A stretch of 64,000 nt of DNA from NCBI GenBank assembly GCA_951406725.2, contig OX597816.1:90582001-90646000 (forward strand). Direction: 5' to 3'. The position numbers and the translations under genes were made by a program. Below the pieces are notes generated by a model. That model did no database searches and had not been told where the DNA came from. It was given only the letters and a program-made list of their open reading frames with translations. This DNA is from Octopus vulgaris. Lineage: Eukaryota. Shown here in pieces: positions 14,234 through 54,064 of this stretch (the stretch's first letter is position 1; the number at the start of each line of letters is the position of its first letter).

Positions 14234-16287
14234 TCGCTGTATAATTTTTCCTTTATATAAAACTATTTTGCTTCTTTGGAAAAGTTATATATAATTGCCA
14301 TCTGCGTCAGACAGATCGCAATTAGACAAAATAACGAAAACAGGGTTGTTAAATAACTATATCAGAGATTACTAACTAAAGGAAGTAAGAACAATTTCTT
14401 CATTATACACATTTGTTTGCACAAATAACATTTGTATAAATCCATTTTGTAATTAATTAGTGAATTAATTGATTAAGTCATTAATTTATGAAATAGTTTG
14501 CTCTTTATCATTCTCATCACATCTTTAAGTTATTATCATAAAACTTTAAGATCTGATGTGATTGGAAGCGGGTAATATGTTTGATTGATTGATTAATTAA
14601 TTATGATATGGATTTACATAATTTTATATATTTACGAATCAATGTATAAACCGACGAAATATTTCCTCCAGCAATTCGAAACGATCGTCGCCTACAATAA
14701 GTGATGTAACAAGAGAGTGTTGGTTGTTTTCGTTTGATTGCTAATATATAAAAAAAATAAAATCTGCGCCCTTTTTAAAGCCTAGCCAGGCTCATGGACC
14801 CGGTTTCCCGGTTTCAATGGCGTATGTGTTCTCCAGCTGGACGGGACACCAGTCCATCGCAGCGTTACTCATTTTTGTCAGCTGAGTGGACTGGAGCAAC
14901 GTGAAAATGAAGTACTTTGCTCAAGAACACAACGCGACGCCCGGTCTAGGAATCGTAACCACAATTACGATCATGATGCTGACACCTTAACCACTAAGCC
15001 ACGCACCTACACGATTGCTAATATACTCTGCGATAAATACATCAATCCATTGAATGATGATCCTCCTTTAATTTTCAGTTTGTATGGAATACTCTGTGGG
15101 TTAAATGTATGTGGATTCCAATTTTCCTCACTTGACATTCTTTCTGTTAGCCAGGCTTTACGATTGGAGTGCAAACCGAAAAATTCGTCTACATTTAATC
15201 CCTATTTCTCTCGTTATACAAGTGTGTGTGTGTGAGTGTGAGTGTGGGTGTGAGTGTGTGTCGCTGTATAATTTTTCCTTTATATAAAACTATTTTGCTT
15301 CTTTGGAAAAGTTATATATAATTGCCATCTGCGTCAGACAGATCGCAATTAGACAAAATAACGAAAACAGGGTTGTTAAATAACTATATCAGAGATTACT
15401 AACTAAAGGAAGTAAGAACAATTTCTTCATTATACACATTTGTTTGCACAAATAACATTTGTATAAATCCATTTTGTAATTAATTAGTGAATTAATTGAT
15501 TAAGTCATTAATTTATGAAATAGTTTGCTCTTTATCATTCTCATCACATCTTTAAGTTATTATCATAAAGCTTTAAGATCTGATGTGATTGGAAGCGGGT
15601 AATTTGTTTGATTGATTGATTAATTAATTATGATATGGATTTACATAATTTTATATATTTACGAATCAATGTATAAACCGACGAAATATTTCCTCCAGCA
15701 ATTCGAAACGATCGTCGCCTACAATAAGTGATGTAACAAGAGAGTGTTGGTTGTTTTCGTTTGATTGCTAATATATAAAAAAAATAAAATCTGCGCCCTT
15801 TTTAAAGCCTAGCCAGGCTCATGGACCCGGTTTCCCGGTTTCAATGGCATATGTGTTCTCCAGCTGGACGGGACACCAGTCCATCGCAGCGTTACTCATT
15901 TTTGTCAGCTGAGTGGACTGGAGCAACGTGAAAATGAAGTACTTTGCTCAAGAACACAACGCGTCGCCCGGTCTAGGAATCGTAACCACAATTACGATCA
16001 TGATGCTGACACCTTAACCACTAAGCCACGCACCTACACGATTGCTTATATACTCTGCGATAAATACATCAATCCATTGAATGATGATCCTCCTTTAATT
16101 TTCAGTTTGTATGGAATACTCTGTGGGTTAAATGTATGTGGATTCCAATTTTCCTCACTTGACATTCTTTCTGTTAGCCAGGCTTTACGATTGGAGTGCA
16201 AACCGAAAAATTCGTCTACATTTAATCCCTATTTCTCTCGTTATACAAGTGTGTGTGTGTGAGTGTGAGTGTGGGTGTGAGTGTGTG
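14234..16287 (+). repeat. 1027-bp direct tandem duplication
   Basis: tcgctgtataatttttcc at 14234 and 15261. Identical ORFs at 15050 and 16077. About 5 substitutions seen. Confidence 0.95.
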
Positions 16288-16321
16288 TGTGTGTGTGCAT
16301 GTGTATATGTGCGCGCGCACG

Positions 16322-21974: not shown

Positions 21975-22865
21975 AACTATCCCGTCGAAGACGACGTATG
22001 AACGATAAAAGACAGCAACCAACTCTCATTCAAATCAAGTACTTCACACACACACACACACACATGTCGAACGACCTGCACAAATAATGATTTGTTTATA
22101 ATGATCAAATGTTCGTGCCCTACCTTAGCTCACTTTCTCCATCAAATTGACGTTGTTTGAACAGATGCATTGTGTACCACGCATCAGGTGTCGAAATGGT
22201 CGCAGGGCAACGTGAGATGAAGTGTTTTGCTCAAGAACACAATGCACCACCAGGTGTAGGAATTGAAATCATGATCGCGAGATCATGAGTCCAACATCCT
22301 AATCACTAAATCATGCGCCCTCATATATGTGTGTTTGTGAATGCCTGCGTATTTGTGCTTGTCCTCTCACTACAACTTCACCACCGGTGTTTGTTTACGT
22401 CCCCGTAACATAGCTGTTTGATGATAGAGACCGATAGAATAGATACAAAACTTTAAAAATAAGCTCTAGGATTAACTTGTTCAGTTAAACACTTCAAGAC
22501 GGTACCCTAGTATGGCCCCGGATCAATGGCTGTAACAAGTAAAAGACAAAACCTTTTCCAATTTCCTTTCAGTGTATCAATAATTAAGCCTTTAATTCTT
22601 TCAATGTTATAATTTTAATTTTTGAAGATTTTTATTTTGTAATTTAAAAAGTATTTATTAATTTACCATTCTAATTATAAAAAACCCACGTTATTTTAAC
22701 TTTTTCTATAATTTTTCTATGTAATTAATTAGTGCTCTGAGGGACAGGTTGTGGTTACCATATTCCGTATTTTATAAGATATTTCTTCTATTATTATCAG
22801 TTTCATTAAGGCGGCGAGCTCACAGAATCGTTAATGCGCCAGCGAAAATGCTTAGCATATATATA

Positions 22866-23448
22866 CGAGGGAAGTAAAAAATTACCCGCACTTTCGCCAT
22901 ATCATATCTTTATTATTGTCACATTGCCTTCTGCGCGTGCGTGCTTATAGTTAGTACTACTGTGGTCACGCGATTGAAGTTTGAGCCTGATCGCGCCATT
23001 TTTCTTTCTGGCTTTACAGTATAAGCATGGCCGCTCCACTCGCAATGTGCGACAAAGAAGAACAAAGAGCAGTGATCCGAGAGATGGTAATAGTGAACCG
23101 GTTCACCATTACCCTATCTCGAGCTTGCCGAATTTTTTCTTCAGTGGTGGAGATTGACGGGCGTCCTGTTCCCTCTTCATGCGTAACGCTTTTAAACTTC
23201 TCGATCCATTCATACACACCTCTACGCGGTAGTGCACTGTCCTCGTATTGTGTTAAAAGTCTCCGATGAATTTCAGCACCTGACACACCTTACGACCAGA
23301 GAAATCGGACCACTGTTCTTTGTTCTTCTTTGGTGAACATTGCTAGTGGAGCGGCCATGCTTATACTGTGAAGCCAGAAAGAAAAATGGCGTGATCAGGC
23401 AATCGGATATATTATGGCGAAAGTGCGGATAATTTTTGTCTCCCTCTC

Positions 23449-23449
<1 letters not shown>
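22866..23449. mobile_element. Mariner-derived MITE built from two inverted 5' ends
   Basis: TAcgaggg...aaattacccgcactttcgccata TIR. Mariner N-terminal HTH peptide EEQRTVVRFLWS*GVSGAEIHRRLLTQY...VYEWIEKFK...GRPS on the minus strand, and MAAPLAMCDKEEQRAVIR on the plus strand. Confidence 0.85.
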
Positions 23450-23516
<67 letters not shown>

Positions 23517-23730
23517 TCAATATAGGGTGGCAAAAAATTTCGTAGAATTTATTTGCCACCAGTGGCCTAGTGGGGAAAAATTAAATAGTCATAGACCATT
23601 TATAAGTTCAACATCACAATCAAGGAATGGCCATAATAGGCCATTCACCCACTAGAAATAACAGCCAAAGCTTCAACCGCAAAATAACATTAATTCCGCA
23701 AACCAGGAGAAAATTAAAAAAACATTTACC

Positions 23731-23845
23731 CTGTAATTTCTTATACGATGCACCGTTTCATCTATTGTTTAATGGTAAACTAACCTGATTAAATTAAATC
23801 AAGCCAATCTTCCATAGGCCGATAGATTCGTCAGTAAGAAAACAG
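23731..23845 (-). ncRNA. Type I hammerhead ribozyme on the minus (Wnt sense) strand
   Basis: Reverse complement of the same motif: tcgtcag at 23828-23834 is CUGACGA. Predicted cleavage between 23744 and 23743. Confidence 0.85.
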
Positions 23846-24199
23846 CCAGATCCGAGCAGATATTATCACGAGGCATCTCTATCCCTGCCTCGGCAATATC
23901 TGACCTAAAATTTTCAAATCATCGCACTCGCGCCAAATTTATCGGCAGCAAATATAAGCCGCCGATTCCATTACGGAATTAACCAGAAAATTCATAATTA
24001 ATCAATATAGGGTGGCAAAAAATTTCGTAGAATTTATTTGCCACCAGCGGCCTAGTGGGAAAAAATTAAATAGTCATAGACCATTTATAAGTTCAACATC
24101 ACAATCAAGGAATGGCCATAATAGGCCATTCACCCACTAGAAATAACAGCCAAAGCTTCAACCGCAAAATAACATTAATTCCGCAAACCAGGAGAAAAT

Positions 24200-24310
24200 T
24201 TTCTTACTGACGAATCTATCGGCCTATGGAAGATTGGCTTGATTTAATTTAATCAGGTTAGTTTACCATTAAACAATAGATGAAACGGTGCATCGTATAA
24301 GAAATTACAG
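24200..24310 (+). ncRNA. Type I hammerhead ribozyme (copy at the inversion junction)
   Basis: UUUCUUA-CUGACGA(24207-24213)-AUCUAU...AUAGAU-GAAA(24282-24285)-CGG UGCA UCG-UA^UAAGAAA. Stems I, II and III all pair. Predicted cleavage after A24297. Confidence 0.85.
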
Positions 24311-24678
24311 GGTAAATGTTTTTAATTTTCTCCTGGTTTGCAGAATTAATGTTATTTTGCGGTTGAAGCTTTGGCTGTTATTTCTAGTGGGTGAATGGCC
24401 TATTATGGCCATTCCTTGATTGTGATGTTGAACTTATAAATGGTCTATGACTATTTAATTTTTTCCCACTAGGCCGCTGGTGGCAAATAAATTCTACGAA
24501 ATTTTTTGCCACCCTATATTGATTAATTATGAATTTTCTGGTTAATTCCGTAATGGAATCGGCGGCTTATATTTGCTGCCGATAAATTTGGCGCGAGTGC
24601 GATGATTTGAAAATTTTAGGTCAGATATTGCCGAGGCAGGGATAGAGATGCCTCGTGATAATATCTGCTCGGATCTGG

Positions 24679-24793
24679 CTGTTTTCTTACTGACGAATCT
24701 ATCGGCCTATGGAAGATTGGCTTGATTTAATTTAATCAGGTTAGTTTACCATTAAACAATAGATGAAACGGTGCATCGTATAAGAAATTACAG
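24679..24793 (+). ncRNA. Type I hammerhead ribozyme (second + strand copy)
   Basis: CUGU-UUUCUUA CUGACGA(24690-24696)...GAAACGGUGCAUCGUA^UAAGAAA-UU-ACAG. Predicted cleavage after A24780. Confidence 0.88.
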
Positions 24794-24954
24794 GGTAAAT
24801 GTTTTTTTAATTTTCTCCTGGTTTGCGGAATTAATGTTATTTTGCGGTTGAAGCTTTGGCTGTTATTTCTAGTGGGTGAATGACCTATTATGGCCATTCC
24901 TTGATTGTGATATATATATATGTATATATATATACATACGTATATATATATACG

Positions 24955-41030: not shown

Positions 41031-41487
41031 CACCGCCGTAAAACTATTAAAATGAAGAAATTTGTGGACTAAAACATACATTTTTCAAGTGATATAAAAT
41101 AGAAAAGGTAATAATAGAAGGAAAGAAAGAAAAATAAAATAAAATAAAAGAATACATGAAATGAAGTGAAATAGCATTTGTGAGAGAGAAAAGGTGTGTT
41201 GAAAATAGCAGAGACGATGGGGGTAAAATACCTATGAGTTAAATGGGGACACCTTTTCCTTTTCTACCTAAAAGAAAGACGAGAAAAGTTGATTGTAAAA
41301 TCCTGATGTAAATGAGAGGAATTAATATATTTTAGTATTTCAATATTTTAATATTTCTAATAATTGAATTATTTCAATTTATTTTCACAAATAAAAGATA
41401 AAAAAAAACATACAAACACATACATGTAATTAACATTCAATGCATGAAATAAACCTACTGATAAAATAAAGGAATTAGATCACCTAC

Positions 41488-41780
41488 CCGTCTTCCAGCT
41501 TCATTGTTATGAAGATTCATAAGCATTCTGGCTAATCCACGCGAGAAACGCGGATAATTTCTTTCTTTCTCTCGTTTATCAATAAAACCAACTGCAAATT
41601 TGTAGGCATGCTCAATGTTGTCCCCACATTCTCCCCATAGCCAATCTTTATGTATCGTCGGTGGCCGAGGGGCTTCACTGCATCCACACCGAGATAACTG
41701 ACCTTGTTGACATGCTCGACTGATGGAATATACTACACCAGAAGAAGATATAGCATGTGTGAAACCATTTTCTCGACTAC
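41488..41780 (-). CDS. Wnt5: Internal coding exon of a Wnt5-type ligand gene
   Basis: Translates (G)SRENGFTHAISSSGVVYSISRACQQGQLSRCGCS...DWLWGECGDN...ARMLMNLHNNEAGRR, colinear with the Wnt5 segment GSRETAF...SRAC..G.LS.CGCS...DWLWGGCGDN...LMNLHNNEAGRR. Acceptor tttctcgttgattccAG (AG at 41782-41781, phase 1) and donor CGG|GTAGGT (GT at 41487-41486, phase 0). 293 nt. No other Wnt exon was found in the window. Confidence 0.93.
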
Positions 41781-42144
41781 CTGGAATCAACGAGAAATTA
41801 AATTGAAAATTGTTTTGAACAGTCTTAGAATTAAATTACTTCTAAATCGCCTTATTATGTGGATAGAGCTATTATTTAAGATAATGACTAATTTTTATTA
41901 TTATTTTTCTCAGTATCTAAGTGTTTATAAATCATATCTTTAATCACACTATTTTTTTTTTATTTAGCAAGCCGAACTTTATCAAATAAAAAGAAACGAC
42001 AATTAATTTGTGAATTGGATAAAAGTAACGATACTTAAAGTGGGTATGTCCATCAAACTCTGACACGAAATTTTTATGAATAAAAGGATAATATTCGACA
42101 AACAGCAATTGTCTAGGAGTAAATTTTAATGACAATACAAATAT

Positions 42145-52364: not shown

Positions 52365-54064
52365 CTGAATTTCTCCCTTTCTGAAATGGATTCGTCCTTT
52401 TCTGAAATGGATTCGTCCTTTTCTCAAATGAATTCGTCCTTTTCTCAAAGGAATTCGTCCCTTTAATATCATAGTCCGATTTATAAAACATAATAATTTC
52501 AACACTTTTAACATGCCAAACAAGACACACAAGAAAGTATCTGAGTAGGATAAAAAAAGAATATTTTCTGCTTTCAGAAACAGCGAAAATTTGAAATCGT
52601 TGCCCCGCGCCCTTGATATATATTTCTTTGCTACCCACAAGGGGCTAAACATAGAGGGGACAAACAAGGACAGACAAAGGGATTAAGGCGATTACATCGA
52701 CCCAGTGCGAAACTGGTACTTTATTTATCGACCCCGAGAGGATGAAAGGCAAAGTCGACCTCGGCGGAATTTGAACTCAGAACGTAACAACAGACGAAAT
52801 ACCGCTAAGCATTTCGCCCGGCGCGCTAACGTTTCTGCTAGCTCGCCGCCTCCTTGATATTAACTACAGTATAGTTAAGGCAATTGCGCAAAAAGATTAT
52901 TCTCCAAAGAAAAAACGTGGGCACCGATAGCGAAAAATCAAGGAAAATCATTAACAATTTTTACAAGAATCGATTAATGATGACCCAACTTTAACTTTGA
53001 AAAGACTGAGAGAACTTTTACATGAGAAATTCGATTATCAACTATTGATCACTATCTTGATGGCTTTGGATACACTCTGAAAGAACTAATAATTCGCCCT
53101 CAAGAACGAAATAGCGAAAATAAAAAAAGGAGCGATGTTATTACGCAAAATGGCTTCAAGATAATGGATTGCCCATTCATCGCGTATGCATTGATGAAAC
53201 AAATTACATTTGGATTTCAAGGTAAATGATTAATATATTTTCTAAATATTTATATAAAATTTTGTTTCTGAAATATTTTTGCGATCTACTTTATTTTGAA
53301 GGTCGATGGGCAGAGCATACCGTGGAGTTCGGGTAATTACCGATCGTCCTTTTACTAAAAGGGCAAATCTAAACATTATTACCGTTATGGATATGTCGAG
53401 TTTTATCCAATTCGAAACATTTAAGAAGATCACAGCTTCTGAATTTAACAGCTTTTTACATCAATGTTCACTAAAGATCGCTGCGACTACATCAGATCCT
53501 ATCATATTTATTATGGACAATGCGTGCATCCATAAACGTGTCGATGAAGTTGATCTCGCGCCACAACATACGGTTAAATATCTAACTCCTTATTTCCCAA
53601 TGTTTAATCCCATTGAGGAAATATTTAACGAATTGAAATCTTTTGTGAAGCACTATATACAGTCATAAAAATGATTTCTACAGCAGACCAGAAAATTTAC
53701 CCGTGACGATTCATAGAGCGAATATTTTAAAAACAGCAATGTATCTTGCTGTAAATTGTGCAAGATATGATCGACATCAAACATTTTCATCCTGCAAGCA
53801 TTGAATATGAAGGATTTGTGAAATATTCATGATTACAAGCATTTTAAAAAAAATTTATATCGTTTTAAGTTTAGTTTTTGTTTATTTTTTTACTATTTTC
53901 GTGCTAAGATACTATTTTGTATATTTGTTTAAACTTATAGGTGTCTAATTTTTTAAATATTTAAGATCTAAATTGGCTTTGATATCAAAGTGACGAATTC
54001 ATTTCAGAAAAGGACGAATTCATTCGAGAAAGAGACGAATCATTTGAGAAAGGGTGAGGCGCAG
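52365..54064 (+). mobile_element. IS630/Tc1-superfamily DNA transposon with a decayed, intron-containing DDE transposase
   Basis: TA-ctg...cag-TA ends and 21-bp subterminal repeats (ttctgaaatggattcgtcctt) inverted at both ends. ATG at 52513. Catalytic motifs CIDETN, IMDNACIH and YLTPYFPMFNPIE. In-frame stops and frameshifts upstream. Confidence 0.88.
52620..52851 (-). mobile_element. Family A SINE inserted into the transposase N-terminus, 9-bp TSD
   Basis: ccttgatat at 52611-52619 and 52852-52860. Confidence 0.9.

What the first reader, a model, noticed from the sequence alone, without database searches (positions are those of the whole stretch)
23509..24911. Candidate new retrozyme: a 483-485 nt non-coding unit with an intact hammerhead ribozyme, in tandem and inverted copies
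Seen: the unit repeats head-to-tail (period 485), the array starts and ends at arbitrary points within the unit, copies are about 99% identical, there is no ORF, and both flanks are (TA)n. Two + strand type I hammerheads (CUGACGA at 24207 and 24690, GAAA, GUA cleavage triplets) would cut after 24297 and 24780 and release a 483-nt monomer. Known: metazoan non-LTR retrozymes are tandem repeats with type I hammerheads that produce circular RNAs and are thought to use Penelope-like RT; reported monomers are mostly shorter. Inference: this is a recent integration of cDNA copied more than once around a circular RNA, possibly an undescribed cephalopod retrozyme or viroid-like family.
Basis: partly seen in the sequence, partly recalled or inferred. 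Interest (0 to 1): 0.92.

Follow-up and report, generated by a model that had tools for sequence, protein, structure and literature searches.

The report
Octopus retrozyme with Penelope two-site footprint
This is one of about a thousand copies of a short, protein-free jumping repeat with a predicted self-cutting RNA motif in what is likely an octopus genome; its kind (retrozyme) is known, but its insertions end at two fixed points in strict pairs, which suggests that a Penelope-type enzyme copies one RNA unit, probably a circle, from both cut DNA strands and makes a long-suspected spreading route testable.

Summary
Core conservation and compensatory stem changes support a real ribozyme; cleavage is untested. 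The family has about 1,000 hammerhead copies genome-wide, plus a sister family at about 75% identity.

One claim is wrong: the ends are not arbitrary. 123 of 127 TA-flanked 3' ends fall at two sites 104 nt apart. Of 46 inverted insertions, 43 pair one site with the other, and none repeats a site. That is the Penelope-like (PLE) 'tail' signature, also seen in this genome's own PLEs; Hydra-clade tails match best in length. Arms often cross the cleavage junction precisely and share rare alleles, favouring repeated copying of one unit, probably a circle. A-to-G-rich contigs hint at transcription.

Verdict: a new member of a known kind (non-LTR retrozyme), useful as footprint evidence for PLE mobilisation. 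Circle, cleavage and helper are inferred. The scan reported the same reading earlier for other octopus-type repeats.

The parts
23460..23511 (.). (TA)n target tract, left
23509..24200 (-). Inverted arm, 1.43 units; 3' end at 23509 = unit position 233 (site B); 5' end at unit position 27
23509..23612 (-). 104-nt PLE-type tail (site A to site B), present at the end of this arm only
   Evidence: (I1 arms start at 23613)
23737..23841 (-).
24199..24200 (.). Head-to-head junction of the two arms, 2-nt overlap in a T/A run
24199..24911 (+). Forward arm, 1.48 units; 5' end at unit position 385; 3' end at 24911 = unit position 129 (site A)
24200..24304 (+). Type I hammerhead 1: stem I 7 bp, CUGACGA, stem II 6 bp capped by a 56-nt structured loop, GAAA, 3-bp stem III with palindromic UGCA loop, GUA, predicted cut after 24297
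24298..24780 (+). Predicted 483-nt cleavage-to-cleavage monomer (family range mostly 481-493 nt)
24683..24787 (+). Type I hammerhead 2, predicted cut after 24780
24910..24952 (.). (AT)n target tract, right

Best explanation
The element is a recent insertion of a dispersed, non-coding tandem repeat with a type I hammerhead motif in every unit (a non-LTR retrozyme), likely copied into (TA)n by a Penelope-like RT-endonuclease that primes both nicked target strands at two fixed RNA sites 104 nt apart and likely runs repeatedly round a single-unit, probably circular, template. SHOWN: anatomy, copy number, (TA)n flanks, two fixed 3' ends, strict A+B pairing, scattered 5' ends, precise junction crossings, array homogeneity, covariation, and the same A+B footprint in the genome's own PLEs. 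INFERRED: (1) a multi-unit source locus is transcribed; (2) the hammerheads cut, probably as dimers since helix III is weak alone; (3) the monomer is ligated into a circle; (4) a PLE protein nicks both strands of (TA)n and starts one cDNA at site A and the other at site B; (5) each cDNA runs 0.1 to several rounds and stops at a variable point; (6) the two cDNA ends are joined by microhomology into a head-to-head insertion; (7) some arrays later grow by local amplification. The helper is more likely Hydra-clade (about 0.5) than Neptune- or Naiad-type; it is not identified. Confidence: retrozyme 0.9, PLE-type mobilisation 0.9, circle as main template 0.6.
For: Ends: 123 of 127 TA-flanked 3' ends at site A (67) or B (56) over 78 regions. 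Pairing: 43 of 46 inverted insertions are A+B, 3 are B+other, none AA or BB; in the complete contig-C1 list alone, 21 of 27 are A+B, 6 have one other end, none AA or BB. A sister family at about 75% identity has ends at matching places, with 5 of 6 pairs A+B. PLE comparison: two internal RT start sites, nicking and extension of both strands, and the tail are reported for an anole PLE (PMC11167929); tail at one end, inverted 5' copy and (TA)n targets for PLEs generally (PMC8557442). In G000, Hydra-clade PLEs (RWK, DKT, CxCx5C, CxxC, CxH motifs; open 947-codon frame) carry long-loop-II, GUA hammerheads and tails of about 100-121 nt, A+B in 7 of 7 head-to-head copies read. Neptune-like families have tails of about 26-33 nt. 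Single-unit template: 246 of 248 junction crossings have no indel; divergence is 0.61% within arms and 0.95% between arms against a 3.8% median between loci; 31 rare alleles are fixed in all copies on both strands against 2 true cases shared by a subset across arms. Ribozyme: 0 of 12 invariant core sites are polymorphic across loci against 105 of 425 sites overall, and N7 takes all four bases; 6 of 15 stem pairs change on both sides and 95.8% of cells pair. RNA hint: single contigs of RNA-guess runs read A as G or T as C in clusters.
Against: No cleavage, monomer or circle was observed; only contigs were available and no run is on record as RNA. No nucleotide homology was found between the unit and any PLE terminus sampled beyond a 15-nt AT-rich match, so the helper rests on tail length and architecture only. 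The circular minimum-energy fold forms stem II but not stems I and III. 7 of 74 loci have an A-C mismatch at the base of stem II, and most sister-family copies read CCGAUGA. In the anole PLE, cleavage was not needed and uncleaved RNA was the main substrate. 8 of 9 predicted Xenopus dimers did not cleave. Long arrays show mosaic or periodic variants, so unit number is not a pure count of RT rounds. 5' ends are mildly enriched just after the cut site (17 of 140 within 30 nt, p = 0.006), which hints at some linear cut templates or at alignments stopping in a T run. One locus (L141) has an arm-specific dinucleotide, which suggests two RNAs or conversion. Covariation counts mostly reflect two related families, not many independent events. 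The C1 loci were chosen by a 17-mer that covers half of the core sites and the junction.
Confidence: 0.65

Rival explanations
1. Non-autonomous PLE derivative copied from uncleaved linear multimeric transcripts, or by precise template jumping on a linear monomer. The hammerhead acts at another step and no circle is needed; arrays are kept homogeneous and lengthened by unequal exchange.
For: Uncleaved RNA was the main substrate for the anole PLE. Periodic or mosaic variants occur in long arrays L137, L138, L155, L107 and L017. L153 shares a variant between round 1 of both arms only, and L126 has an alternating helix-III variant also present in the other arm. 5' ends are in excess near the cut site.
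Against: 31 array-wide rare alleles on both strands against 2 subset cases. Short inverted arrays are homogeneous although the family spans about 10% divergence. 246 of 248 junctions are precise. 5' truncation would shrink arrays unless units are regenerated (inference). Circles are shown for three other animal retrozymes.
Confidence: 0.25
2. The unit is the pseudo-LTR or 3' end of an autonomous PLE, and these arrays are 5'-truncated copies of it.
For: Same footprint as autonomous PLEs; truncated PLE ends are common in this genome. Only 78 of an estimated ~480 loci were read.
Against: None of the 78 regions showed the unit continuing 5' into a shared upstream sequence. PLE reading frames near L105, L109, L106 and L133 are separate insertions beyond (TA)n or other sequence. 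60 of 121 arms cross two or more junctions of the same unit.
Confidence: 0.05
3. Mobilised by a LINE with twin priming, or a plain satellite or assembly artefact with a chance hammerhead.
For: A few loci (L100, L109, L119) have a non-overlapping inverted 5' piece with a non-TA flank, as twin priming would give.
Against: No poly(A) tail; two internal fixed ends in strict pairs; overlapping arms; dispersal over many contigs; 0 hits in 30 controls; covariation; held by runs of four organism labels.
Confidence: 0.03
4. Endogenised viroid-like or satellite RNA that replicates RNA-to-RNA.
For: Highly structured unit (z = -6.2); contigs with editing-like changes on both strands.
Against: Hammerhead found in one polarity only. 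Branched rather than rod-like fold. Both-strand RNA is expected from inverted genomic copies.
Confidence: 0.02

Closest known systems
Metazoan non-LTR retrozymes (coral, mussel, axolotl: PMC7229834, parts 2-4 of 6 read; vertebrate survey 10.64898/2026.07.22.740005, parts 1-3 of 5 read)
   Same: Non-coding tandem unit of a few hundred nt, one type I hammerhead per unit, GC below 50% (37% here), dispersed copies, no LTR, structured RNA, PLEs in the same genome.
   Different: Hammerhead with a 56-nt structured loop II (missed by Rfam). Insertion into (TA)n. Head-to-head two-arm insertions with two fixed, paired 3' ends, which I did not see described for retrozymes in the parts read. No sequence homology to a PLE terminus found, unlike 21 of 57 Xenopus families. 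Cleavage and circles not shown here.
Penelope-like elements: Poseidon of Anolis (PMC11167929, parts 1-2 of 4 read); Hydra, Neptune and Naiad clades (PMC8557442, passages and section 11 read)
   Same: Two internal RT start sites defining a tail, tail on one arm only, inverted 5'-truncated copy, partial tandems, AT-rich or (TA)n target, type I hammerhead near the 3' end.
   Different: No reading frame. Tail of 104 nt rather than the 30-40 nt quoted as typical (this genome's Hydra families have about 100-121 nt). The whole element is one repeating unit with up to about 10 copies per arm.
Non-autonomous Chlamys PLEs such as MRC1 (PMC8557442, passage)
   Same: Non-coding PLE passengers with multicopy head-to-tail insertions.
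   Different: Those share 3' sequence with autonomous families and mostly lack canonical hammerheads; green algae.

Membership tests
Type I hammerhead ribozyme | CUGANGA / GAAA / NUH core with stems I-III in type I order | tested here: met
   3 copies in the window, 0 in 30 controls
Type I hammerhead ribozyme | Core conserved, stems covary | tested here: met
   few independent events; some subfamilies have a stem II mismatch or a CCGAUGA core
Type I hammerhead ribozyme | Match to an Rfam hammerhead model | tested here: not met
   no hit at gathering score or up to E 10; likely due to the 56-nt loop II (inference)
Type I hammerhead ribozyme | Self-cleavage | not testable with these tools
   needs transcription assay; helix III hairpin -0.2 vs dimer duplex -17.5 kcal/mol predicts dimer action
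Non-LTR retrozyme | Non-coding tandem unit with a hammerhead in each repeat | tested here: met
Non-LTR retrozyme | Dispersed multi-locus family | tested here: met
   502 + 498 exact 17-mers, reversed control 0 + 1; 39 loci on contig C1
Non-LTR retrozyme | No LTR architecture | tested here: met
   arrays end inside the unit at sites A and B; PBS and PPT were not searched for separately
Non-LTR retrozyme | Transcribed | tested here: inconclusive
   RNA-guess contigs cover the unit, with A>G and T>C clusters in single contigs; no run on record as RNA, no matched DNA
Non-LTR retrozyme | Accumulates as circular RNA | not testable with these tools
   the tandem DNA holds the same junction, so contigs cannot tell
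Non-LTR retrozyme | Target-site duplication | tested here: inconclusive
   flanks are (TA)n, so a duplication cannot be read
PLE-mobilised element | Two 3' end sites (tail) with the tail on one arm only | tested here: met
   123 of 127 ends; 43 of 46 pairs A+B, 0 AA or BB
PLE-mobilised element | Inverted 5'-truncated copy, variable 5' ends, (TA)n target | tested here: met
PLE-mobilised element | Sequence shared with the terminus of an autonomous PLE | tested here: not met
   none among 50 GIY-YIG regions or 50 Hydra regions; only part of the PLE diversity was sampled, Naiads not sought
Autonomous PLE | RT plus GIY-YIG reading frame | tested here: not met
Viroid or viroid-like replicon | RNA-to-RNA replication; ribozymes in both polarities | tested here: not met
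   one polarity only; replication itself not testable here
Catalogued repeat (Dfam, Repbase) | Existing library entry | not testable with these tools
   no repeat library on hand

The most novel reading that the evidence does not exclude
These insertions are a genomic record of double target-primed rolling-circle reverse transcription: a Hydra-clade Penelope-like RT dimer loads one ribozyme-made RNA circle, starts one cDNA at each of two sites 104 nt apart from the two nicked (TA)n strands, and rolls several times round it with strand displacement. It recognises the RNA by shape, not by shared sequence. That would name the missing helper of animal retrozymes and show that PLE RTs use circular templates.
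Probability: 0.35. Interest if true: 0.78.

Novelty: new member of a known kind. Interest (0 to 1): 0.52.

Why it matters
PLE mobilisation of animal retrozymes has been proposed from co-occurrence and from pLTR similarity in Xenopus. How PLEs make their tandem and inverted insertions is itself open. This family supplies insertion-level evidence (two start sites, strict A+B pairing, multi-round arms) and the reagents for a direct test: a 483-nt RNA, predicted start positions 129 and 233, a (TA)n target, and open Hydra (947-codon) and Neptune-like (781-codon) frames in the same genome. It also shows that Rfam misses long-loop hammerheads. The inverted insertions are predicted to be ready-made double-stranded RNA substrates in an animal group known for heavy A-to-I editing (the last point is recalled).

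Tried and rejected
Rfam: no hammerhead hit at either threshold.

A Pfam accession recalled for PLEs is not in the library, so GIY-YIG PF01541 was used.

Search for a parent PLE terminus: no homology in 50 GIY-YIG regions. The one 53-nt hit (L079/L033) is a separate short retrozyme insertion ending at site A. There was none in 50 Hydra regions either, where the hits were a sister retrozyme.

Apparent retrozyme-Hydra chimeras at L106 and L129 were rejected: they are inverted duplications of flanking DNA. L129/L025 was therefore left out of the Hydra pair count.

A-to-G bias among genomic singleton variants was not seen: G>A 54, C>T 39, A>G 9.

The idea that higher-order periods always track a broken ribozyme fits L126 and partly L137, but not L107, L017 or L138; it was not adopted.

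A shared CATTC motif before site A is too weak, since older subfamilies read CGTTC.

The RNAalifold run held one spurious row (L239) and was not used for counts.

No RNA holder is listed as such. The flank 2425-3100 of L144 had no cover in X1, X4 and X14 but was covered in X15; this is a weak hint only. Contig depths were not used for copy number or expression level.

PMC5785218 is not held. Supplements of PMC11167929 were listed but not read, and bioRxiv supplements are closed. Species lists or end maps there could bear on novelty.

Look-up of earlier findings by sequence returned nothing.

Full report
ANATOMY. The stretch 23509-24911 lies between (TA)n tracts. It is a head-to-head pair of arms of one unit: a minus arm 23509-24200 (1.43 units) and a plus arm 24199-24911 (1.48 units), overlapping by 2 nt. 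Numbering the unit from 24298, the minus arm ends outward at position 233 and the plus arm at 129. A strict type I hammerhead scan of both strands of the window found three hits, all here (cores 24207, 24690 and minus 23834; stems of 7, 6 and 3 pairs), and none of equal stem length in 30 Markov controls. Loop II is a 56-nt hairpin, the likely reason Rfam finds nothing. Helix III is marginal alone (-0.2 kcal/mol) but self-complementary as a duplex (-17.5). Dimer cleavage is therefore predicted, as reported for axolotl retrozymes (PMC7229834). There is no ORF over 60 aa inside the element. The host is likely an octopus; this is recalled from the 2.8-Gb size and repeat landscape and was not tested.

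FAMILY. The unit gave 193 matches from 40 of 1,792 candidates scored. The 17-mer over helix III and the cut site occurs 502 + 498 times, with a reversed control of 0 + 1, plus 17 variants. The 81 matches on contig C1 fell into 39 loci, all fetched, which extrapolates to about 480 loci. Units are mostly 481-493 nt and subfamilies diverge up to about 10%. A sister family at about 75% identity turned up. Runs under four organism labels hold the unit.

IS THE RIBOZYME UNDER SELECTION? Across 74 loci, 0 of 12 invariant core positions carry an allele shared by two loci, against 105 of 425 positions overall, while N7 takes all four bases. Half of these core positions lay in the pattern used to pick the C1 loci. 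On 27 aligned hammerheads of both families, 6 of 15 pairs change on both sides and 95.8% of cells pair; slid controls pair 38-42%. These counts reflect a handful of events, not 27. Against: 7 of 74 loci have an A-C mismatch at the base of stem II, most sister-family copies read CCGAUGA, and the circular minimum-energy fold lacks stems I and III. In Xenopus, 8 of 9 predicted dimers failed to cut. Cleavage remains a prediction.

THE ENDS ARE FIXED. Over 78 regions (39 from the full C1 list, the rest best matches or long arrays) and 140 segments, 127 3' ends are TA-flanked: 67 at site A (120-145, mode 129), 56 at site B (222-238, mode 233) and 4 elsewhere. The other 13 are not TA-flanked. Of 46 inverted insertions with both arms TA-flanked, 43 are A+B, 3 are B+other and none is AA or BB. 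C1 alone gives 21 A+B, 6 with one other end, and no AA or BB among 27. 5' ends are scattered, with a mild excess just after the cut site (17 of 140 within 30 nt, p = 0.006). Arm junctions mostly show short overlaps or short inserts. The sister family repeats the pattern, with 5 of 6 pairs A+B. This is the PLE signature: the anole PLE protein nicks and extends both strands, starts at two internal RNA sites that bound the genomic tail, and is predicted to be a dimer (PMC11167929). PLE copies carry an inverted 5' copy and a tail often at one end only (PMC8557442).

WHICH HELPER? G000 holds many GIY-YIG elements. A Neptune-like family has an open 781-codon RT + GIY-YIG frame; its tail is about 33 nt, that of a relative about 26 nt, and my scan found no canonical hammerhead in them. 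A second group has the Hydra-clade motifs listed in PMC8557442, including an open 947-codon frame that Pfam does not match. It carries GUA hammerheads with stem-loop II spans of 59-60 nt and tails of about 100-121 nt. All 7 head-to-head copies read are A+B (L039/L157, L221, L223, L225, L230, L234, L236); L129/L025, a flank duplication, was left out. The retrozyme's 104-nt tail and 68-nt span fit Hydra best, but no sequence is shared beyond one 15-mer. Other hammerhead families and Naiads were not followed. The helper clade is thus a lead at about 0.5.

CIRCLE OR NOT? 114 of 121 arms cross at least one cut site, 60 cross two and 25 cross three (biased by selection on the hammerhead). 246 of 248 crossings have no indel. 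Divergence is 327/53,782 within arms and 231/24,311 between arms (the latter inflated by L108, which holds two insertions), against a 3.8% median between loci. 31 rare alleles are fixed in all three or more copies on both strands, while only 2 true cases are shared by a subset across arms (L126, L153; two further rows were single reversions). This favours repeated copying of one unit, usually the same for both arms. It does not prove a circle: uncleaved multimers from homogeneous sources or exact jumping would look similar. Long arrays show periodic and mosaic variants typical of later amplification or of multimeric templates, and L141 has an arm-specific dinucleotide.

EXPRESSION. No holder is on record as RNA. 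In RNA-guess runs, single contigs equal the unit with clustered changes, compared by eye. X1 reads 9 of 13 A as G across the cut site; X9 has one end with 3 A>G and one with 6 T>C; in X4, A>G is the largest class on the antisense strand (15 places). This suggests transcription of both strands and A-to-I editing, without a matched DNA control. For this locus, folding predicts a 584-588 bp hairpin from either strand that buries two of the three hammerheads, and only 1 nt of sense sequence precedes the first one. The copy is more likely a dead-end product than a source of circles. A Wnt exon lies 16.6 kb away on the minus strand. The element is probably in its following intron, but the next exon was not found.

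COMPARISON AND NOVELTY. It works like, and by the testable features is, a non-LTR retrozyme (PMC7229834; PMC7761336, passages). The link to PLEs was proposed there and backed by co-occurrence and pLTR similarity in 10.64898/2026.07.22.740005, whose 35 species included no mollusc. Searches for octopus + hammerhead ribozyme, cephalopod + retrozyme, Octopus + Penelope + Neptune, PLE + tail + hammerhead and recent retrozyme papers listed no description of this family or of paired ends in retrozymes. The library lacks most subscription papers, supplements were not read, and repeat libraries could not be checked. Earlier notes of this scan reach the same reading for other octopus-type units; I saw them after forming mine, and they are not independent support.

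VERDICT. New member of a known kind; interest 0.52. The value lies in the insertion footprint and the direct tests it allows.

Noticed in passing
window 41458-41835 (-); G000:C3:90680600-90680785 (-): Wnt-family exon (PF00110, E 4e-28) ending at a splice donor, with an upstream exon 57 kb away; the last exon was not among 39 genome hits, so the retrozyme is probably but not surely intronic.
   Followed up: partly
window 22865-23450: Nested terminal inverted repeats (96 nt, 92%; 45 nt, 84%) left of the element, likely a mariner-derived MITE (label recalled).
   Followed up: no
L223:1700-2337, L225:233-596, L237-L260: Sister retrozyme family, about 75% identical, older-looking, mostly CCGAUGA core and GUC triplet, same two end sites.
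   Followed up: partly
L217:3051-5891 (-), L159:585-1013 (+): Hydra-clade PLE families with an open 947-codon frame, an Asn-rich linker, long-loop hammerheads and 100-121 nt tails; no Pfam match.
   Followed up: partly
L061:1405-5087: Young Neptune-like PLE family with a 781-codon frame, an upstream frame of about 330-480 codons, and no canonical hammerhead found in its pLTR.
   Followed up: partly
L012, L034, L038, L042, L076, L088, L106, L112, L125, L127, L256: At least six further type I hammerhead families in (TA)n, several inverted; one has a tail of about 150 nt (L256: ends 52 and 204 nt after the cut).
   Followed up: no
L106:2753-3922; L129:2150-4530: Retrozyme insertions whose 5' side is an inverted duplication of the flanking DNA.
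   Followed up: partly
L126 (G000:C1:173.13 Mb): A helix-III-breaking variant alternates in every second unit and also occurs in the opposite arm, as a dimer template with one non-cutting junction would give.
   Followed up: partly
L144:1988-2074: A contig form skipping or replacing 85 nt (the 5' half of the hammerhead) appears in three RNA-guess runs of three studies and not in the laid part of X15.
   Followed up: no
window 53300-53665 (+): DDE_3 transposase fragment.
   Followed up: no
window ~14786-15270 and ~15813-16300: Near-identical local duplication with a period of 1027 nt.
   Followed up: no
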